A stretch of 16,197 nt of DNA, taken from the UHGV virus genome UHGV-1963518; one strand, written 5' to 3'. This document shows, piece by piece, positions 1 to 8,276 of the stretch. The position numbers and the translations under genes are program-made. Below the pieces are notes generated by a model. It was not told the origin of the DNA. It did not search any database and saw only the letters and a list, made by a program, of their open reading frames with translations. This stretch comes from a virus. The stretch's first letter is position 1. The number at the start of each line of letters is the position of its first letter.

Positions 1-53
1 GCAGCGCATTCGTAATGCGAAGGTCGTAGGTTCGACTCCTATTATCGGCACCA
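1..53 (+). tRNA. thrW: tRNA-Thr (anticodon CGU), 3' portion only; 5' part lies outside the window
   Basis: Sequence GCAGCGCATTCGTAATGCGAAGGTCGTAGGTTCGACTCCTATTATCGGCACCA matches, from memory, the anticodon arm through CCA end of E. coli thrW. T-loop GGTTCGACTCC and terminal CCA at 51-53 are visible. Confidence 0.8.
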
Positions 54-1434: not shown

Positions 1435-1562
1435 CTGGTTGAGTATACAGTAGTAGACTTTGAGCGACGAAAGAAAAGGCTGTGTCTAGGGTCGCTCCCG
1501 AAAATCCGTACACCTCGACGGACTGGTACAGCCACTACAGTAGAGGACGCTGAGGTGTGCGT

Positions 1563-2829: not shown

Positions 2830-3630
2830 ATGAAATTTCCAAAAACGCCCGTACAGGGGCGGGGCTTCGTTCGGCCTGAAAACCAGAATCTGCAAAATTT
2901 CGGCGAAATTATCCCGATTATTTCCGGCGTTATTGGCGGGAGTGAAACCACTATTGTTAGCGCCAGAGCGTTACATAAGGCGTTAGGTGTAGGGCGCGTT
3001 TTCCGTTCGTGGATCAAGGGGCGCATTGAAGAATACGGGTTCACGGAAGGCGTGGATTATGAGGTTGTTGAATATTTGAGCCGACCCGATCCGGTGAGCG
3101 CAAAATCTCGCCAGCAAACCGCTCTTGAGTACATCATCACAGTGAACATGGCGAAAGAACTGGCGATGGTCGAACGTACCGAACAGGGCCGCGCCGTTCG
3201 CCAGTACTTTATCAAATGCGAGGAGGAGCTACACAAGGTTGCGCCTGTTCGTTCCGCAGCGTTACGCCGGGAACTGAAAGCCCGTATCACAGTTGCCAGC
3301 TACTTTAAGCCAATGTGTGCCGCGCTGGAGGCGTACCGGGCTGAACTGGGTAAAAACACACTCCAGCACCACTACACCACGGAAGCGAACATGCTGGCGC
3401 GTATCGTGCTGGGTGGCATGACTGCAAAACAGTGGGCACTGGCGAACGGCATTACAGGCGAACCACGCGACCACATGAGCACGTTGCAGCTTGAGCACCT
3501 TTCTTACCTTGAGCAGAGCAATATCACGCTGATTGAGTTAGGCCAGGACTACCACCAGCGGAAGGCTGAATTAATTCGTCTTTCGCAGCGTTGGTTAGCC
3601 CGTCGCATGGAGGAAAACAGCCATGTGTAA
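2830..3630 (+). CDS. Phage antirepressor-like protein (AntA/KilAC-type domain)
   Basis: 266 aa with RBS AGGAG. Segment VSARALHKALGVGRVFRSWIKGRIEEYGFTEGVDYEVV matches the AntA-type pattern as I remember it. Family assignment is from memory only. Confidence 0.55.
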   Translation: MKFPKTPVQGRGFVRPENQNLQNFGEIIPIISGVIGGSETTIVSARALHKALGVGRVFRSWIKGRIEEYGFTEGVDYEVVEYLSRPDPVSAKSRQQTALEYIITVNMAKELAMVERTEQGRAVRQYFIKCEEELHKVAPVRSAALRRELKARITVASYFKPMCAALEAYRAELGKNTLQHHYTTEANMLARIVLGGMTAKQWALANGITGEPRDHMSTLQLEHLSYLEQSNITLIELGQDYHQRKAELIRLSQRWLARRMEENSHV

Positions 3631-4347
3631 CGCTCTGACCGTTACAAAAAGAGAAAGCGCCCCGTTGCCGGAGCGCCTTTGTGAACGAATAGCCTACTGC
3701 GCCATATTGCTTACTGTCTACGAGGCAGATTATAGCGTTGTGGTCGCACAGAGTGAAGGCGCTGATCACCGTTACTACAGCACGCCAGAAATGCAGAATA
3801 TTTTGCTGCAAAATGTCGTTGGTCACACTGTCCGGAAAGCAAAAAATTTTGCTGGTGGCGCGACTGATGCGATTTTGTCAGGTCGCCAGGTGCTGATCAA
3901 TCTGATGTCTGATTTCGTTCTGGATAAAACAAAGGCGACCGCAGAGGGCCGCCAGTGGGAAAGCTACATACTTGAACGCATCGCCAACAATGCCAGATTT
4001 GCGGCTGGTGGGCAATGTGTCAGCTTTGCACCAATGACTCTATGTTTAACTGAGGGTCATTATGGTGAATATGCTGGCTTGCTGGTGGGCTATTCCTGCT
4101 CTTTAACATTGCCATGCCGCGATGTTTTCCAGGTATGCGACCCCATTTTTGTGCGCCTGTACTCTTTAAGGAATTTCTCAAGGATAAACGCACAGGGCGC
4201 GAATCTGTTTGACTCATGCTCGTACGCTATCTTTCTGCGCTGTCTTTTCCGTGCCGGTGATGGTGTATTGGTTGATTCTTTGTTGGTCATGGCGCTGCCC
4301 TGTAAAACGATGCACCGTAGTTCCTCACACCACGGCGCTGGTGATGG

Positions 4348-4653
4348 TTACTCCAGTTCTTTGGCCTTGCGCCGCTGGAGTTCTTCACGCGCGACGGTGA
4401 CGAGTTGCCCGATCTCCTCGGCTGCTTTGACACCGATTTTTTCCACCTGCGCCAGTGCATCGAGCGAAGAAACCAGGGGATTTTCTCCGCTTCCTTCTGC
4501 CTGGCGGCGGGCGATTTCACCGCGAACGGCTGTAATCACGAAAGCGGCTATTGTTTCCCCTTCCGTTTTCGAATTTTCCATTTCCTCGATTACATCATGG
4601 GGGAAGCGGATATTTTTCATTTGCGATCTGCTGTTGATGTTTCCTGTTGCCAT
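4348..4653 (-). CDS. Putative ribbon-helix-helix (CopG/Arc-like) DNA-binding regulator, divergent from the early operon
   Basis: Minus-strand ORF. Internal Met (start at 4620) gives MKNIRFPHDVIEEMEN...ETIAAFVITAVRGEIARRQ, a beta-strand/helix/turn/helix pattern typical of RHH proteins. The opposite-strand frame here is Ser/Ala-rich nonsense. True start (4653 or 4620) is uncertain. Confidence 0.5.
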   Translation of the reverse strand: MATGNINSRSQMKNIRFPHDVIEEMENSKTEGETIAAFVITAVRGEIARRQAEGSGENPLVSSLDALAQVEKIGVKAAEEIGQLVTVAREELQRRKAKELE

Positions 4654-4743
4654 CAGAATGTCCGGTTATTTTGAGGTGTGTACACATTACACCAAAAGGT
4701 GTGTTGATAAAACACTTGACACTGTAGCACACTTAAATCTAAT

Positions 4744-4778
4744 CTGTATATACACCAATGATTGTGGTGTATATACAG
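4744..4778. promoter_or_regulatory. Perfect 14-bp inverted repeat CTGTATATACACCA-N7-TGGTGTATATACAG in the divergent intergenic region (putative operator)
   Basis: Read directly; the arms are exact reverse complements. Lies between the minus-strand RHH gene and the plus-strand operon starting at 4844. A TTGACA hexamer sits nearby at about 4718-4723. Confidence 0.55.
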
Positions 4779-4843
4779 CAACGCCCCGCAGTGGTGGCAC
4801 ACATGCAGGGCGTCTAACCAAACCGTTAAACGAGGTAACGATT

Positions 4844-5209
4844 ATGGCTGGAACACAGCATACCCAAACTCACCCTAAATTTATATACACCTTCCTGGCG
4901 GTGCACCGTGATTGCATAGCTGACGGTAAAAACACTGTACACGTAGCCGCTGATACGCTGGTTGATGCCTGCGAGATGCTCAATGACATGGGCTATATCT
5001 CGGCAACATGGAAAGGGCGCGAAGAAAACACGCTGTTTATTCAGAAATGCGAGAACAATTTTATCTGGCGTTTTATCGCCCTGAGCACAGCACAACCGCG
5101 CGTAATTCACATCGAGGCCACCAGCGAACAGGAAGCACGCCAGCAATCTCCTGATGGCTGCGTGATGGTATTCGCTGCCCGTATTCGCCAGGAGGTGGAG
5201 CATGTGTAA
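4844..5209 (+). CDS. Hypothetical protein, first gene of the early operon
   Basis: ATG at 4844 preceded by GAGG. In frame with the C-terminal third of the 528-aa ORF 3623-5209. Stop overlaps the next start (ATGTGTAA). Confidence 0.5.
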   Translation: MAGTQHTQTHPKFIYTFLAVHRDCIADGKNTVHVAADTLVDACEMLNDMGYISATWKGREENTLFIQKCENNFIWRFIALSTAQPRVIHIEATSEQEARQQSPDGCVMVFAARIRQEVEHV

Positions 5210-5426
5210 TGCAACATGGCCTGATGCAGCGGTAGACGCGATCAAAACGCTGATGGATTCACTTATTGAGATTTCTGCTATCGCTGGTGTGGCGCATAAA
5301 CACGCAGCCAGAGAATCAGAATGCATCTTCCATTATTTAGCATTTGTGCAGCTAAAAGCCGATCAGGCACTGGATAAGGCCGGAAAAATTATCATGGCTG
5401 ATGTGCAGGAGGTGCACCATGCATAA
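5202..5426 (+). CDS. Hypothetical small protein
   Basis: 74 aa. Strong RBS AGGAGGTGGAG immediately upstream. Overlaps both neighbours by a few nt. Confidence 0.5.
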   Translation: MCNATWPDAAVDAIKTLMDSLIEISAIAGVAHKHAARESECIFHYLAFVQLKADQALDKAGKIIMADVQEVHHA

Positions 5427-5775
5427 CCTGTCAATTTCTGACCTTAACAGCATTCAGTTTGACGAGATATTTTCCGGGCAGCTACTGGTCAACGTGGAGA
5501 ATGGACGCGTGGTAAGTAATTATCACCTGCCGGATGGTGCAATTGCCGGAAGCGTTGAAGCATTGCTGGAACTGGCGGAACGTGCGCGACTGATTAAGCC
5601 GTCAACGTGCCATCACGATGATGATCTGCATTTTACCGGACGCATGGTGAGTCACTACGAAAACGGCGTTGAAGTATCCCGCGAACGTCTGCGTGATGAT
5701 TGCTGTTTCGGCACACTGCCGGAATTTATCGAATTGCTGACCAGTTGCGGTTATCAGGTCATTCAGGGGGGGTAA
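5419..5775 (+). CDS. Hypothetical protein
   Basis: ORF 5401-5775; ATG at 5419 follows GGAGGTG with good spacing. Confidence 0.5.
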   Translation: MHNLSISDLNSIQFDEIFSGQLLVNVENGRVVSNYHLPDGAIAGSVEALLELAERARLIKPSTCHHDDDLHFTGRMVSHYENGVEVSRERLRDDCCFGTLPEFIELLTSCGYQVIQGG

Positions 5776-5777
5776 AC

Positions 5778-6011
5778 ATGCGTGATGATCGTTTTAATTC
5801 CCTGAAACGGGAATTTGATGGCGCACCGGAAGATGCAGCGGGCGCATTGTTGAGCGTTGCTGACATGATGAAAGCTGCATATTTTCTTATCAATACCAGT
5901 GGCTACAAGTCAGAGGGTGAAATGATTCTTAGTATTGCGTCGGACTATGCGGAATATGTGGCAGAGACGCGTTACAGAAGAAAATTCACGGAGGATGTAA
6001 GCCATGCATAA
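5778..6011 (+). CDS. Hypothetical small protein
   Basis: ORF 5700-6011; ATG at 5778 follows a G-rich RBS (GGGGGGG). Confidence 0.45.
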   Translation: MRDDRFNSLKREFDGAPEDAAGALLSVADMMKAAYFLINTSGYKSEGEMILSIASDYAEYVAETRYRRKFTEDVSHA

Positions 6012-6204
6012 TCATGAAGCGCATGTACCCGTAGTGCTTAATGTGCCAGATGATTTCACCGGACGCGTACTGGTTTACCTGGATAAAGGGAAAGTGAAAT
6101 CACAATGCCGACTGAAAAGTAATGAGATTGTTGGTTCTCCTGAATTTTTTTCTGAACTCTGTATTCGTGCGGAAATAAAACCGGAACTGCTGACAGGAAA
6201 ATAA
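6004..6204 (+). CDS. Hypothetical small protein
   Basis: 66 aa. RBS GGAGG at about 5990. Start overlaps the previous stop. Confidence 0.45.
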   Translation: MHNHEAHVPVVLNVPDDFTGRVLVYLDKGKVKSQCRLKSNEIVGSPEFFSELCIRAEIKPELLTGK

Positions 6205-6208
6205 AACC

Positions 6209-6451
6209 ATGAAAAAGAAAAATTCTGGCTTTACTGCCAGCGGTCTCTCTCGGCCTGAAATCAGACTCGGAGATATTTACCGCGACACCAGACATGGGGG
6301 ACGAGTGGTTATTCGTCACGTTACGCCAGGCAATATCACCTACCGCCGTGATTTTACGCTGGTGGACCATTATAAAGCCGTAAATCAAAAACGTGCAGCA
6401 AGCTATATCCGCAAAATCCGTGAAATGCTGGTTGCAGGGGGGAAAAAATGA
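6209..6451 (+). CDS. Hypothetical small basic protein
   Basis: 80 aa with RBS AGGAAA. Stop overlaps the primase start (ATGA). Confidence 0.5.
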   Translation: MKKKNSGFTASGLSRPEIRLGDIYRDTRHGGRVVIRHVTPGNITYRRDFTLVDHYKAVNQKRAASYIRKIREMLVAGGKK

Positions 6452-8262
6452 AACTGGCACCGAACGTAAAAAAACAGCCACGCGGAATAAAACACAAAGA
6501 CACAGAGGTAATTATTTTCGCGGGTAGTGATGCCTGGGCACACGCGAAACAATGGCAGGAACACGATGCGCGTATGGCTGGAGATAATGAGCCACCTGTT
6601 GTGCTGGCTGATGAACAACTGAAAGAGATCGGAAATCTGCAAATAGTGCCTGATGGGCGCACATCCGCGCGCATATTCAGAGCCGGACAGTTAGATCCTG
6701 TAATGGTTAAGGCAATTGGTCAGAAGCTGGCGGCGGCAAGTATACAGAATGCGAATTATTACCCTGATGGCATGCACAGCCAGAAGTGTGAGAACTGGCG
6801 TGAATACCTTGCCCGTGAGCGTAAAAACATTGATGACGGACTGATTATCCGGTTTCCGGCAAAGAAAAAAACAGAAGACAGCGCGACACCACTGGCACTT
6901 AACCAGATGGGAGCAAGCCAGCGCGGCGAAGTTCTCCTGGCACATTATGGCGGTGAACTGGCAATCAATGCGGATTCTGACACCGTTCACCACTACAACG
7001 GTGTTGTATGGGAGCCGGTACAGGATAAAGAGTTACAGCGGACTATGGCGCAGATTTTTATTGATGCGGAAATCAGCTATTCGCAGAACGCCATCAAATC
7101 GGCGGTCGATACCATGAAGTTAAGTTTGCCCGTAATGGGGAATACAGCCCGTAACCTGATTGGATTCAGTAACGGGGTATTTGATACCAGAACTGGTAAT
7201 TTTCGGGAGCATAACAAAAACGACTGGTTGTTAATTGCCAGTGAATTACCTTTCAGCCCACCAGCAGAGGGGGAAACGCTGGCAACACATGCGCCGAATT
7301 TCTGGAAGTGGTTGCGCCGTTCGGTGGCTGAGAATGACCGCAAGGCAGATCGCGTACTGGCGGCGTTATTCATGGTGCTGGCGAATCGGTACGACTGGCA
7401 GTTATTTCTTGAGGTAACGGGGCCGGGTGGAAGCGGTAAAAGCGTAATGGCGGAGATTTGCACTATGCTGGCGGGTAAGGCCAACACGGTATCGGCAAGC
7501 ATGAAGGCGCTGGAAGATGCCAGGGAACGTGCGTTAGTGGTTGGCTTTTCGCTGATTATCATGCCGGATATGACCCGTTACGCTGGTGATGGTGCAGGGA
7601 TTAAGGCCATTACAGGCGGTGATAAGGTGGCAATCGACCCGAAACATAAAGCCCCCTACTCAACACGCATTCAGGCGGTCGTGCTGGCGGTGAACAATAA
7701 CGCCATGTCATTCAGTGACCGCAGCGGTGGGATATCACGTCGTCGGGTAATATTCAATTTTTCGGAAGTTGTACCGGAGAACGAACGTGACCCTATGCTG
7801 GCTGAAAAAATAGAAGGAGAGCTGGCGGTAGTGATTCGCCACCTGCTTACACGCTTTTCTGACCAGGACGAAGCTAAACGCCTGCTATATGAGCAGCAGA
7901 AATCAGAAGAAGCCCTGGTGATAAAACGCGAGGGCGATTCGCTGGTGGACTTCTGCGGCTATCTCATGTCGTCGGTAATGTGCGATGGCCTGTTAGTGGG
8001 TAATGCTGAAATTATTCCGTTCAGCCCGCGCAGGTATCTCTATCACGCCTATCTGGCGTATATGAGGGCACACGGATTCGGTAAGCCCGTAACACTGACA
8101 CGCTTCGGTAAGGATATGCCAGGGGCAATGGCGGAATACGGCAGGGAGTATATGAAACGGAAAACGAAGCATGGCTTGCGTTCAAACGTGATACTGACAG
8201 AGGATTCAGAAGACTGGATGCCCTCATGTGCATCGGTCACAAATGACGATGGCAAAAATTAA
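6448..8262 (+). CDS. Replication initiator: primase/helicase with P4-alpha / D5-like NTPase domain
   Basis: 604 aa. Walker A GPGGSGKS and downstream acidic box LIIMPDM. Translationally coupled to the upstream ORFs. An iteron cluster lies immediately downstream. Confidence 0.8.
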   Translation: MKLAPNVKKQPRGIKHKDTEVIIFAGSDAWAHAKQWQEHDARMAGDNEPPVVLADEQLKEIGNLQIVPDGRTSARIFRAGQLDPVMVKAIGQKLAAASIQNANYYPDGMHSQKCENWREYLARERKNIDDGLIIRFPAKKKTEDSATPLALNQMGASQRGEVLLAHYGGELAINADSDTVHHYNGVVWEPVQDKELQRTMAQIFIDAEISYSQNAIKSAVDTMKLSLPVMGNTARNLIGFSNGVFDTRTGNFREHNKNDWLLIASELPFSPPAEGETLATHAPNFWKWLRRSVAENDRKADRVLAALFMVLANRYDWQLFLEVTGPGGSGKSVMAEICTMLAGKANTVSASMKALEDARERALVVGFSLIIMPDMTRYAGDGAGIKAITGGDKVAIDPKHKAPYSTRIQAVVLAVNNNAMSFSDRSGGISRRRVIFNFSEVVPENERDPMLAEKIEGELAVVIRHLLTRFSDQDEAKRLLYEQQKSEEALVIKREGDSLVDFCGYLMSSVMCDGLLVGNAEIIPFSPRRYLYHAYLAYMRAHGFGKPVTLTRFGKDMPGAMAEYGREYMKRKTKHGLRSNVILTEDSEDWMPSCASVTNDDGKN

Positions 8263-8276
8263 ACTTATGGAATAAC

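What the first reader, a model, noticed from the sequence alone, without database searches (positions are those of the whole stretch)
4844..6451. Six tightly coupled small ORFs ahead of the primase, reminiscent of a P4 early (left) operon
Consecutive ORFs overlap by 1-8 nt, and each has a plausible RBS, which argues they are real and co-translated. None is recognisable. In P4 the equivalent operon holds small helper-interaction and derepression proteins upstream of alpha, so these are candidates for helper-phage sensing or interference.
Basis: partly seen in the sequence, partly recalled or inferred. Interest (0 to 1): 0.45.

Follow-up and report, generated by a model that had tools for sequence, protein, structure and literature searches.

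The report
Satellite early operon related to P4
The six small genes are real and form the front half of the replication operon of an E. coli phage satellite (a PICI); the operon shares ancestry with the early operon of satellite phage P4, two of the six genes belong to described families, and the rest is an ordinary though poorly understood part of a very common element.

Summary
The six ORFs exist as described and are real genes. Each is under purifying selection, and PGAP calls the same genes in related E. coli genomes. About a third of complete E. coli genomes carry the architecture. The window is a classical Gram-negative PICI, not a P4-type satellite.

The P4 analogy is nonetheless real homology:
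- ORF1 is a tandem Kil/Eta/Icd-like protein, the same family as the first ORF of the P4 left operon.
- The primase is 50% identical to P4 alpha.
- The origin uses P4's TGTTCACC iteron.
- The 8-nt coupled junctions are shared.
- ORF1 is the 3' end of a 528-codon open frame, which resembles P4's nested eta/kil.

"None is recognisable" is wrong. ORF1 is Icd/Kil-like. ORF6 is DUF4222, the RgdR regulator family, here a deletion variant.

ORFs 2-5 are shuffled cassettes. ORF3 (two repeats) and ORF5 are paralogs. ORF2 and ORF4 homologs are fused in other PICIs.

No P4 epsilon, orf151 or orf106 homolog is present, and no CI/C4 RNA. The operon instead has a divergent YlcI/YnfO gene, a clustered operator-like motif, and a conserved covarying 5' leader hairpin that matches no Rfam family.

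A helper-sensing role is unsupported. The best reading is a translation-gated early operon giving growth arrest, accessory cassettes and replication.

The parts
3623..5209 (+). 528-codon open frame that contains ORF1 as its last 121 codons (Eta-like long form). Its ATG overlaps the antA stop by 8 nt and has a GGAGG SD.
   Evidence: The ORF1 frame stays open 150-415 codons upstream in 24 of 35 distinct loci, against medians of 23 and 1 in the other two frames. The pattern is bimodal across sequence classes. Segment 3623-4089 shows no amino-acid-level constraint (dN/dS about 1), so the frame is kept open rather than encoding a conserved protein.
4348..4653 (-). Divergently transcribed YlcI/YnfO-family gene (101 aa) with a ribbon-helix-helix-like N-terminus; candidate repressor of the operon promoter.
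   Evidence: NF041551 at 8e-18; phrog_6522 at 2e-48; weak RHH-type Pfam hit. dN/dS is 0.03-0.42, slightly lower than the antisense + frame in every comparison. The gene variant changes together with the operator sequence between loci.
4675..4778 (.). Operator-like region: four copies of GGTGTRTWNAY (4675-4685, 4698-4708, 4746-4756 on the minus strand, 4766-4776). The last two form a perfect 14-bp-arm palindrome at 4744-4778.
   Evidence: Four matches in the window, all in this region, against 0.23 expected and 0 of 200 shuffles reaching 4. Palindrome reported.
4716..4745 (+). Promoter-like site: TTGACA (4716-4721), 18-nt spacer, TAATCT (4740-4745). It overlaps the palindrome.
   Evidence: Read from the sequence. 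The TTGAC and TAAT(C/T)T positions are kept in relatives whose operators differ. It did not pass the consensus scanner, so it is a prediction only.
4781..4813 (+). Conserved 5' leader stem-loop (12 pairs; outer 6 bp invariant, inner pairs covary).
   Evidence: Twenty-one distinct variants fold alike, with free energy -14 to -24 kcal/mol and z -3.2 to -6.8. 91.7% of cells are paired against 28-55% when partners are slid. Four pairs show double compensatory changes (26 cells). The covariation score is 0.224 against at most 0.055, and 0 of 500 shuffles reach it. No Rfam family matches.
4814..4843 (+). Nearly invariant single-stranded leader CTAACCAAACCGTTAAACGAGGTAACGATT, including the ORF1 SD (GAGG, 4832-4835).
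   Evidence: Leader plus start is found in 1239 of 5426 complete E. coli genomes.
4844..5209 (+). ORF1: tandem Kil/Eta/Icd-like protein of 121 aa (domain 1 about aa 1-57, domain 2 aa 73-116).
   Evidence: The C-terminal half hits NF033153 at 6e-23. The N-terminal half against a single-domain Kil/Icd profile that includes P4 Kil gives hhalign probability 98.4%, E 4e-15. The P4 eta/kil ORF hits the same family at 8e-21. dN/dS is 0.04-0.27.
5202..5426 (+). ORF2: 74-aa acidic protein (phrog_5146). Homologs form the N-terminal half of a 154-aa fusion protein in O157-type PICIs.
   Evidence: dN/dS 0.24-0.42; pI 5.6.
5419..5775 (+). ORF3: 118 aa, two tandem copies of a module of about 55 aa (phrog_340).
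   Evidence: Both repeats match ORF5 (E 1.7e-6 and 2e-3 in a small database). Two stretches hit phrog_340. Variants of 67-97 aa appear to be recombinants between the repeats. dN/dS is 0.07-0.36.
5766..5772 (+). G7 homopolymer at the ORF3/ORF4 junction.
   Evidence: G6 in 12 related loci (ORF3 then ends KHA with an 8-nt overlap); G7 only in the window and L050. A tract two G shorter would explain the 196-aa ORF3-ORF4 fusions P0002 and P0009; this is inferred from the protein sequences, since no G5 locus was among those fetched.
5778..6011 (+). ORF4: 77-aa acidic protein (phrog_24341), equivalent to the C-terminal half of the 154-aa fusion (phrog_2512).
   Evidence: dN/dS about 0.2-0.5 at high divergence.
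6004..6204 (+). ORF5: 66 aa, a single copy of the phrog_340 module.
   Evidence: dN/dS 0.06-0.61. The AF2 model has low confidence and shows a beta-hairpin plus a helix.
6209..6451 (+). ORF6: DUF4222/RgdR-family protein, 80 aa, basic (pI 11). It has LGD instead of RGD at residues 20-22 and a 48-nt in-frame deletion.
   Evidence: PF13973 at 9.5e-9. Alignment A3. The AF2 model of a 96-aa homolog is an SH3/Tudor/KOW-like barrel plus a helix. Deletion mapped. RgdR literature: PMC3378721.
6448..8262 (+). P4 alpha-type primase/helicase; its start overlaps the ORF6 stop (ATGA).
   Evidence: D5_N, DUF5906 and Pox_D5 domains; 49.9% identity to P4 alpha over 471 aa.
8270..8500 (.). Cluster of TGTTCACC/GGTGAACA iterons in both orientations; probable origin of replication.
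   Evidence: The annotated ori/crr type 1 repeats of P4 have the same octamer.

Best explanation
The six ORFs are the promoter-proximal genes of the early (replication) operon of a classical Gram-negative phage-inducible chromosomal island. The backbone of that operon shares ancestry with the left operon of satellite phage P4.

Shown:
- The genes are real and conserved.
- They form a chain in which each start codon lies within 8 nt of the previous stop, with its ribosome-binding site inside the previous gene.
- ORF1 is a duplicated Kil/Icd-type domain.
- ORF6 is an RgdR-type small basic protein.
- The chain ends in a P4 alpha-type primase followed by P4-type iterons.
- ORFs 2-5 are exchangeable cassettes built from two or three small domain families.

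Inferred:
- The operon is transcribed from a sigma-70-like promoter at about 4716-4745. In the integrated state that promoter is shut by the divergently encoded YlcI/YnfO-like protein binding the four operator repeats.
- The transcript starts with a conserved hairpin and an invariant leader, which set its stability or the access of ribosomes to ORF1.
- Translation of ORF1 gates everything downstream, by coupling and by protecting the mRNA from Rho-dependent termination, as established for kil/eta in P4 and icd-ant in P1.
- A second route of expression comes from upstream. Transcription started at alpA/antA is translated continuously through the 528-codon open frame, which runs antisense across the repressor gene and ends in ORF1.
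- Once expressed, ORF1 arrests host division. ORFs 2-5 are small acidic binding proteins directed at host or phage partners still unknown. ORF6 acts as a DNA-associated regulator next to the initiator. The primase then replicates the excised island.
For: - Reality and coupling of the genes.
- PICI identity: tRNA fragment, int-alpA RNA, integrase, AlpA-like HTH, AntA/B, primase, ProQ, PerC and a terS-like protein, with no structural genes. The same islands sit at tRNA-Thr or next to yicC in E. coli.
- Homology to the P4 left operon: Icd-like domain in ORF1 and in P4 eta/kil; P4 kil is 65 aa starting at ATG 8365; alpha homology; identical iteron; the same GGAGGTG junction after the Icd-like domain. 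Some relatives (L070) carry the P4-type isrK/seqA and C4/CI RNA cassette between two Icd-like ORFs.
- Conserved architecture, Icd-like, then variable cassettes, then DUF4222 (or an alternative 122-aa family), then primase or RepA helicase: seen in 66 loci and matched in 1775 of 5426 E. coli genomes.
- Operator and promoter. Hairpin covariation. Nested long frame.
- P4 regulation by eta/kil translation is summarised in PMC10111431. AlpA acts as the activator of the downstream PICI genes in PMC6092414.
- An Icd-like protein acts as the toxic effector in a six-gene operon that includes a primase, in bioRxiv 10.1101/2023.04.06.535777.
- RgdR phenotypes and non-specific DNA binding are in PMC3378721.
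Against: - No expression data exist for this element. The promoter failed the consensus scan and no transcription start is known.
- Repression by YlcI/YnfO, Rho-dependent polarity and translation of the long frame all rest on analogy and on sequence statistics.
- The long frame is absent (9-37 codons) in 11 of the 35 distinct loci.
- Where the long frame overlaps the minus-strand genes, its openness is partly a by-product of their codon phase.
- No activity has been shown for ORFs 2-5, and the AF2 model of the ORF5 module was poor.
- The window's ORF6 lacks 16 core residues and the R20 that matters for RgdR activity, so it may be impaired.
- Cell-division inhibition has been shown for P1 Icd and cell killing for P4 Kil, but not for any PICI homolog.
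Confidence: 0.7

Rival explanations
1. Helper sensing or derepression. The small proteins bind helper-phage repressors or otherwise sense or interfere with the helper, as epsilon does in P4.
For: Their position upstream of the primase matches that of epsilon in P4. ORFs 2-5 are small and acidic, as protein-binding inhibitors often are. The phrog_340 module occurs as a C-terminal domain of Bro-N and AntA proteins, a network that includes anti-repressors.
Against: There is no tblastn similarity and no shared PHROG family with epsilon, orf151 or orf106. A dedicated AntA/AntB antirepressor is already encoded upstream. The published model for Gram-negative PICIs is that the helper activates alpA, not that the island derepresses the helper (PMC6092414). 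The cassette content varies freely between islands that share the same backbone.
Confidence: 0.1
2. Phage-triggered growth-arrest (abortive infection or superinfection exclusion) module. The operon is kept mainly because an infecting phage's protein switches it on, and the Icd-like protein then stops or kills the cell. This is not exclusive with the main explanation.
For: [quoted passage not shown] The Icd-like gene was required (bioRxiv 10.1101/2023.04.06.535777). P4 Kil kills when expressed (PMC10111431). The window also has a long N-terminally extended form of the Icd-like ORF.
Against: No PADLOC defence model hits any of the proteins. The identity of the ECOR61 genes with these ORFs was not checked, because no sequence was available to me. 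The reconstituted effect in that study was described as muted. Toxicity could be a side effect of uncontrolled island induction, which PMC6092414 reports as harmful to the cell.
Confidence: 0.25
3. Replication accessory proteins. ORF6, and perhaps others, regulate the initiator, as Cnr (orf106) does for alpha in P4.
For: DUF4222 always sits immediately upstream of, and is coupled to, the replication gene, whether that gene is a primase, a RepA helicase or a DUF927 protein. It occupies the position of P4 orf106. It is basic, has a Tudor/KOW-like barrel, and RgdR binds DNA non-specifically.
Against: There is no tblastn similarity and no shared PHROG family with orf106/DUF5375. In some loci an unrelated 122-aa family replaces DUF4222. 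The published RgdR phenotypes concern host transcription and motility, not replication. The window's copy has lost part of the barrel.
Confidence: 0.2
4. The ORFs are chance open frames or degraded remnants with no function.
For: ORF6 is a deletion variant. The G7 tract differs from the usual G6. Pfam and NCBIfam find nothing for ORFs 2-5.
Against: There is purifying selection in all six frames. The start and SD sites are conserved. All six hit PHROG families. The region is found in hundreds to thousands of genomes.
Confidence: 0.02

Closest known systems
Left (early) operon of satellite phage P4 (PLL/PLE: vis, eta/kil with the CI RNA, epsilon, orf151, orf106, alpha)
   Same: The first ORF carries the Icd-like (Kil) domain. 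A short form is nested in a long upstream frame. An AlpA/Vis-family gene lies upstream in the same orientation. Junctions are 8-nt overlaps with the SD inside the end of the Icd-like domain. The last gene is an alpha-type primase/helicase (50% identity). The iteron is TGTTCACC.
   Different: There is no CI/C4 RNA, isrK/seqA or a1b1 element (positive controls). There is no epsilon, orf151 or orf106 homolog. The Kil domain is duplicated. A divergent YlcI/YnfO gene with protein-type operators, and a different conserved leader hairpin, take the place of RNA immunity. The window has no sid, delta or psu.
Early region of Gram-negative PICIs such as EcCICFT073 and EcCIEDL933/CP-933C (PMC6092414, PMC10111431)
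   Same: Same gene order: int, alpA, Bro/Ant zone, Icd-like, small ORFs, DUF4222, primase or RepA, PerC. Related loci in UPEC and O157:H7 genomes share homologs of ORFs 2-4 and of ORF6.
   Different: The cassette set and the ORF1 N-terminus differ. UPEC- and O157-type loci have a single Icd-like domain and other cassettes, and some fuse ORF2 and ORF4. None of these small genes apart from RgdR has a published function.
immI operon of phage P1 (c4 RNA, icd, ant)
   Same: A small Icd-family ORF comes first and is coupled to the genes behind it, and its translation is needed for their expression (established knowledge of P1; the family name is from NF033153).
   Different: P1 controls icd with the C4 antisense RNA, which is absent here. 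The downstream gene in P1 is the antirepressor, whereas here the antirepressor-like gene lies upstream.
RgdR (ECs1581 of O157:H7 OI-51; C1493 of CFT073), PMC3378721
   Same: ORF6 belongs to the same Pfam family and holds the same operon position, immediately before the replication gene. It is small and strongly basic, and the N-terminus MKxKxSGxTASG is conserved.
   Different: ORF6 is 80 aa rather than 99. It lacks 16 residues of the conserved core, and has L20 where R20 matters for LEE activation. The role of RgdR in the island's own life cycle is unknown.
Six-gene cell-death system of ECOR61 (bioRxiv 10.1101/2023.04.06.535777)
   Same: An Icd-like protein with an N-terminal extension, several linked small genes and a DNA primase act together.
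   Different: Sequence identity with the window was not tested. The trigger (phage orf24) and the phenotype have not been examined for this element.

Membership tests
P4 left-operon type (P4-like satellite early operon) | First translated ORF is Kil/Eta (Icd-like domain) | tested here: met
   NF033153 at 6e-23 for ORF1 and 8e-21 for the P4 eta ORF. hhalign of the ORF1 N-terminal half against a Kil profile gives probability 98.4%.
P4 left-operon type (P4-like satellite early operon) | Operon ends in an alpha-type primase/helicase that acts on TGTTCACC iterons | tested here: met
   49.9% identity over 471 aa. Iterons lie at 8270-8500 and are identical to the P4 type 1 repeats. Binding itself was not tested.
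P4 left-operon type (P4-like satellite early operon) | Immunity by CI/C4 RNA with seqA/seqC targets in the leader | tested here: not met
   No C4, isrK or c4-a1b1 hit at E up to 1 in the whole window, or up to 10 in 4640-4900. The same models find them in P4 and in the relative L070.
P4 left-operon type (P4-like satellite early operon) | epsilon, orf151 and orf106 between kil and alpha | tested here: not met
   No tblastn similarity and different PHROG families.
P4 left-operon type (P4-like satellite early operon) | Short gene nested in a long ORF that starts upstream of the internal promoter and is coupled to the upstream gene | tested here: inconclusive
   The 528-codon frame is present and coupled to antA, and it is conserved in 24 of 35 loci. 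Its translation has not been shown, and the frame is partly explained by the antisense codon phase.
P4-like satellite (whole element) | sid, delta and psu capsid-hijacking module | tested here: not met
   No such families among the window's ORFs. The window may not hold the whole element.
Gram-negative PICI | Integrase next to a tRNA or attachment site, AlpA-family regulator, primase/replicase, about 15 kb, no phage structural or lysis genes | tested here: met
   tRNA 3' fragment at 1-50 and int-alpA RNA. Integrase domains. AlpA-like HTH, phrog_2790. Primase. No structural genes found. The same island sits next to tRNA-Thr in IMT5155.
Gram-negative PICI | Induction and transfer by a helper phage | not testable with these tools
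   Needs experiments.
Icd-like proteins (NF033153) | Score above the curated cutoff | tested here: met
   80.6 bits against 25.
Icd-like proteins (NF033153) | Inhibits host cell division or kills when expressed | not testable with these tools
   Known for P1 Icd and P4 Kil only (for P4).
DUF4222 / RgdR | Pfam PF13973 above the gathering score | tested here: met
   35.1 bits against 27.
DUF4222 / RgdR | Intact conserved core (residues 20-68) with RGD at 20-22 | tested here: not met
   LGD at 20-22, and a 16-residue deletion that removes one strand and the short helix of the barrel. Criteria are from PMC3378721.

The most novel reading that the evidence does not exclude
The island uses a protein-and-hairpin version of the P4 eta/kil gate. 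Helper-activated transcription from alpA/antA is translated without interruption through a 528-codon frame. That frame runs antisense across the island's own repressor gene and so silences it, and it ends in a duplicated Kil domain. An undescribed conserved leader hairpin, matched together with the ORF1 start in about a quarter of complete E. coli genomes, controls the internal promoter's transcript. The same operon doubles as a phage-triggered growth-arrest module.
Probability: 0.2. Interest if true: 0.65.

Novelty: new member of a known kind. Interest (0 to 1): 0.4.

Why it matters
Islands with this operon are in roughly a quarter to a third of complete E. coli genomes, including pathogens where they carry PerC and RgdR regulators of virulence genes.

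PICIs and P4 have been described as fundamentally different in structure and gene content (PMC6092414). Showing that the early operon is a P4 left-operon relative with a different immunity device links two satellite families. It also gives concrete, testable control points for how these islands stay silent and switch on:
- the operator repeats;
- the leader hairpin;
- the translation of ORF1;
- the long nested frame.

It also flags ORFs 2-5 as a shuffled pool of small proteins, in which new host- or phage-directed activities are likely to be found.

Tried and rejected
- **C4/CI RNA in the leader.** No Rfam hit, even at permissive thresholds. Positive controls worked.
- **Homology of ORFs 2-6 to P4 epsilon, orf151 and orf106.** None.
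- **Pfam and NCBIfam for ORFs 2-5.** Nothing.
- **PADLOC defence models.** Nothing.
- **Internal promoters or terminators inside the operon.** No more than in shuffled sequence.
- **Structure of the phrog_340 module.** The permitted one gave pLDDT 59, so I ran no fold search on it.
- **Profile search of 1.8 billion representatives with the module.** Only 77 clusters. The large hits are MORN-repeat proteins that match only the hairpin and are probably not homologs.
- **The 528-aa ORF as a conserved protein.** No family hits and dN/dS about 1 in its unique part.
- **An error of my own.** My first antisense dN/dS calculation used the wrong minus frame. It was redone, which supports the YlcI/YnfO gene as real.
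- **L010.** Its contig has the same length as the window, but the leader sequence differs, so it is not the window.
Full report
**Observation.** A 604-aa primase gene follows at 6448-8262. Three internal junctions are 8-nt overlaps of the form ATGnnTAA, two are gaps of 2 and 4 nt, and ORF6 overlaps the primase start by 4 nt. Each ATG has a purine-rich run 5-10 nt upstream.

**Are they genes?** I compared them with alleles from two E. coli genomes, four further RefSeq loci and 62 IMG/VR contigs that share the leader.
- Every ORF shows an excess of third-position changes: ORF1 42/26/147, ORF3 81/40/166, ORF5 148/101/208, ORF6 640/555/987 by codon position.
- dN/dS is mostly 0.05-0.6.
- The first 48 codons of ORF1 are coding as well (21/7/63), so ATG 4844 is the start, not the internal ATG 4988 that PGAP uses in some genomes.
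- The long minus-strand ORFs over the region vary most at their own first or second codon positions, so I reject them (my phase arithmetic on the counts).
- PGAP annotates the same genes in RefSeq, and all six hit PHROG families.

**What the element is.** The window holds, in order:
- the 3' part of a tRNA (1-50), a tyrosine integrase, and the Rfam int-alpA RNA motif;
- an AlpA-like HTH gene, an AntA/AntB-type protein and a minus-strand YlcI/YnfO gene;
- the six ORFs and the primase;
- ProQ/FinO, PerC and a terS-like HTH protein, then accessory genes, with no phage structural genes.

Nearly identical islands sit beside tRNA-Thr in APEC IMT5155 and beside yicC in strain A17. This is the organisation of Gram-negative PICIs (PMC6092414; PMC10111431). 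It is not that of P4-like satellites, which carry sid, delta and psu. Some part of the 1608-bp region matches 1775 of 5426 complete E. coli genomes, but only 148 cover 80% of it, because the middle is mosaic.

**ORF1.**
- Residues 73-116 match NCBIfam NF033153, 'host cell division inhibitor Icd-like', at 6e-23.
- The P4 ORF annotated 'cI gene product' (8168-8584, minus strand) is eta, with kil as its last 65 codons from ATG 8365. It hits the same model at 8e-21.
- The N-terminal half of ORF1 is a second copy of the domain. Its profile aligns with a profile of single-domain Kil/Icd proteins, P4 Kil included, with hhalign probability 98.4% and E 4e-15.
- Other loci behind the same leader encode 64-66-aa single-domain proteins. 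These are collinear with P4 Kil from start to stop.
- The end of the domain encodes the next gene's ribosome-binding site (GGAGGTG) in the window, in relatives and in P4 alike.

**ORF6.** It is a DUF4222 protein (PF13973, 9.5e-9). The family includes RgdR (ECs1581 of O157:H7 OI-51/CP-933C, and C1493 of CFT073). RgdR is a 99-aa basic protein that activates the LEE1 promoter, represses motility and binds DNA weakly and non-specifically. Residue 20 of an RGD motif is functionally important (PMC3378721; PMC10877973).
- A 99-aa homolog with RGD at residues 20-22 occupies the same position in an O157:H7 locus.
- An AF2 model of a 96-aa homolog (mean pLDDT 77, core about 90) is a five-stranded SH3/Tudor/KOW-like barrel followed by a helix.
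- The window's copy has LGD instead of RGD. A 48-nt in-frame deletion removes one strand and the short helix. The same 80-aa form occurs in 40 database sequences.
- In related loci DUF4222 is coupled to whichever replication gene follows: primase, RepA helicase or DUF927.

**ORFs 2-5.**
- ORF3 is two tandem copies of a module of about 55 aa, and ORF5 is one copy.
- Natural 67-97-aa variants appear to be recombinants between the repeats.
- In O157-type loci, homologs of ORF2 and ORF4 are fused into one 154-aa protein.
- A profile of the module finds only 77 clusters among 1.8 billion representatives. In some of them it is the C-terminal domain of Bro-N, AntA or DnaG zinc-ribbon proteins. It therefore belongs to the domain-swapping 'Bro network' described for PICIs (PMC10111431).
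- Across 66 loci the order is always Icd-like, then one to five cassettes drawn from about a dozen families, then DUF4222 or an alternative 122-aa protein, then the replication gene. The window's combination is the commonest, in about 16-19 loci.
- ORFs 2-5 have pI 4.8-6.8, and ORF6 has pI 11.
- None resembles P4 epsilon, orf151 or orf106. None hits PADLOC.

**Control region.**
- Between the divergent YlcI/YnfO gene and ORF1 lie a TTGACA-18-TAATCT promoter-like site (4716-4745) and four copies of GGTGTRTWNAY. These are the only four copies in the window, against 0.23 expected.
- Two of the copies form a perfect 35-bp palindrome over the -10 and the predicted start.
- In relatives, both the operator sequences and the YlcI/YnfO allele differ from the window's. 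This is what one expects of a repressor and its sites.
- Downstream, at 4781-4813, is a stem-loop whose outer six pairs are invariant and whose inner pairs covary. Twenty-one distinct variants fold alike.
- On the alignment, 91.7% of cells pair, against 28-55% with slid partners. Four pairs carry double compensatory changes, and the covariation score is 0.224 against at most 0.055.
- The stem-loop is followed by an almost invariant 30-nt leader that contains the SD.
- No Rfam family matches.
- The P4-type RNA immunity elements are absent from the window but are found by the same search in P4. They are also found in a relative, L070, where isrK/seqA and C4 sit between a truncated first Icd-like ORF and a second one, behind the same hairpin. 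The window's tandem ORF1 looks like the same arrangement without the RNA cassette.

**Nested frame.**
- The ORF1 frame is open upstream to an ATG at 3623. That ATG overlaps the antA stop by 8 nt and has a GGAGG SD, giving a 528-codon ORF.
- In 24 of 35 distinct loci this frame is open for 150-415 codons, with a median of 237. The other two frames have medians of 23 and 1. The remaining loci have short frames. The one short-frame locus whose annotation I inspected (L006) has a reverse-oriented gene upstream.
- The unique part, 3623-4089, shows no amino-acid constraint and hits no family.
- The part antisense to YlcI/YnfO shares wobble positions with that gene, and the gene has the lower dN/dS.
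- I read this as a frame kept open for ribosome transit rather than a folded protein. It parallels P4 eta, which is read from the upstream late promoter and coupled to the AlpA homolog Vis, with kil as its short form (PMC10111431).

**Mechanism.** Shown: the gene chain, its conservation, its homology to the P4 left operon at both ends, the operator cluster, the hairpin and the long frame. Inferred:
- repression by YlcI/YnfO;
- gating of the whole chain by translation of ORF1 (coupling plus protection from Rho);
- a second entry by read-through from alpA/antA, which would also run antisense over the repressor gene;
- growth arrest by ORF1;
- a regulatory role for ORF6 near the initiator;
- unknown binding targets for ORFs 2-5.

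Immediately after the primase lies a cluster of TGTTCACC iterons, the octamer of the annotated ori/crr type 1 repeats of P4. This fits replication as the operon's end point.

**Rivals.**
- Helper derepression is unsupported, and an Ant-type protein is encoded elsewhere in the island.
- A phage-triggered cell-death role is plausible and not exclusive. A six-gene set with an Icd-like effector and a primase behaves this way in ECOR61, but I could not compare the sequences.
- A Cnr-like role for ORF6 rests on position only.
- Chance ORFs are excluded.

**Novelty and limits.** The operon is a further member of a known and very common kind. RefSeq already names ORF1 and ORF6, and PICI papers show the small genes as hypothetical. 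Four points seem not to be described:
- the tandem Kil domain;
- the conserved covarying leader hairpin;
- the eta-like long frame crossing the repressor gene;
- the cassette logic of ORFs 2-5.

All regulatory steps are predictions from sequence, and no function is known for ORFs 2-5.

Noticed in passing
window 8270-8500: Right after the primase gene lies a dense cluster of GGTGAACAG/CTGTTCACC repeats in both orientations. The core TGTTCACC is identical to the annotated ori/crr type 1 repeats of phage P4. This is probably the island's replication origin.
   Followed up: partly
window 1479-1546: Rfam int-alpA RNA motif (45.5 bits, gathering score 35.8), just downstream of the integrase gene.
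   Followed up: no
window 1-50: The 3' part of a tRNA gene at the window edge. It is probably the attachment site, because the same island sits beside tRNA-Thr in APEC IMT5155 (L002).
   Followed up: partly
window 5766-5772: G7 homopolymer at the ORF3/ORF4 junction. Twelve related loci have G6, which changes the last three residues of ORF3 and makes an 8-nt overlap. Database proteins of 196 aa (P0002, P0009) are in-frame ORF3-ORF4 fusions, as a shorter tract would give. This is either a slippage-prone switch or a sequencing artefact.
   Followed up: partly
window 6344-6352 (ORF6): A 48-nt in-frame deletion relative to 95-99-aa DUF4222 proteins. It lies between two short CGTGA repeats and removes a strand and a helix of the predicted barrel. 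The 80-aa form recurs in several genomes.
   Followed up: partly
L070 2501-3126 (NZ_CP074924): A related PICI carries a complete P4-type immunity cassette (isrK/seqA-like at 2695-2771, C4/CI RNA at 2793-2880). It sits between a truncated Icd-like ORF and a second Icd-like gene, behind the same leader hairpin.
   Followed up: partly
window 6448-6660, compared with L001 10896-11100: The first 70 or so residues of the primase and of the RepA-type helicase that replaces it in strain A17 look homologous by eye (MKxAPNxKxQP...EVIIFAGxDA...GDNxPPV). DUF4222 and this N-terminal segment may therefore travel together as a unit.
   Followed up: no
window 12339-13937: A 532-aa protein with no Pfam, NCBIfam or PADLOC match (only phrog_14259, function unknown). 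It lies in the accessory end of the island, where PICIs often carry defence genes.
   Followed up: no
window 14884-15222: A fragment of a second integrase (Arm DNA-binding part, phrog_3423 and phrog_1). It is annotated as a truncated pseudogene at the same place in IMT5155, and probably marks the remnant of an adjacent island.
   Followed up: no
window 4090-4290 (minus strand): A second small minus-strand ORF (66 aa), also annotated in IMT5155. It lies downstream of the YlcI/YnfO gene on the minus strand and inside the long + strand frame. Its substitution pattern (40/71/94) fits minus-strand coding.
   Followed up: partly
window 9492-10022: The island encodes a ProQ/FinO-family RNA-binding protein. 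Proteins of this family bind stem-loops that carry a single-stranded tail, so the conserved leader hairpin at 4781-4813 is a conceivable target. This was not tested.
   Followed up: no
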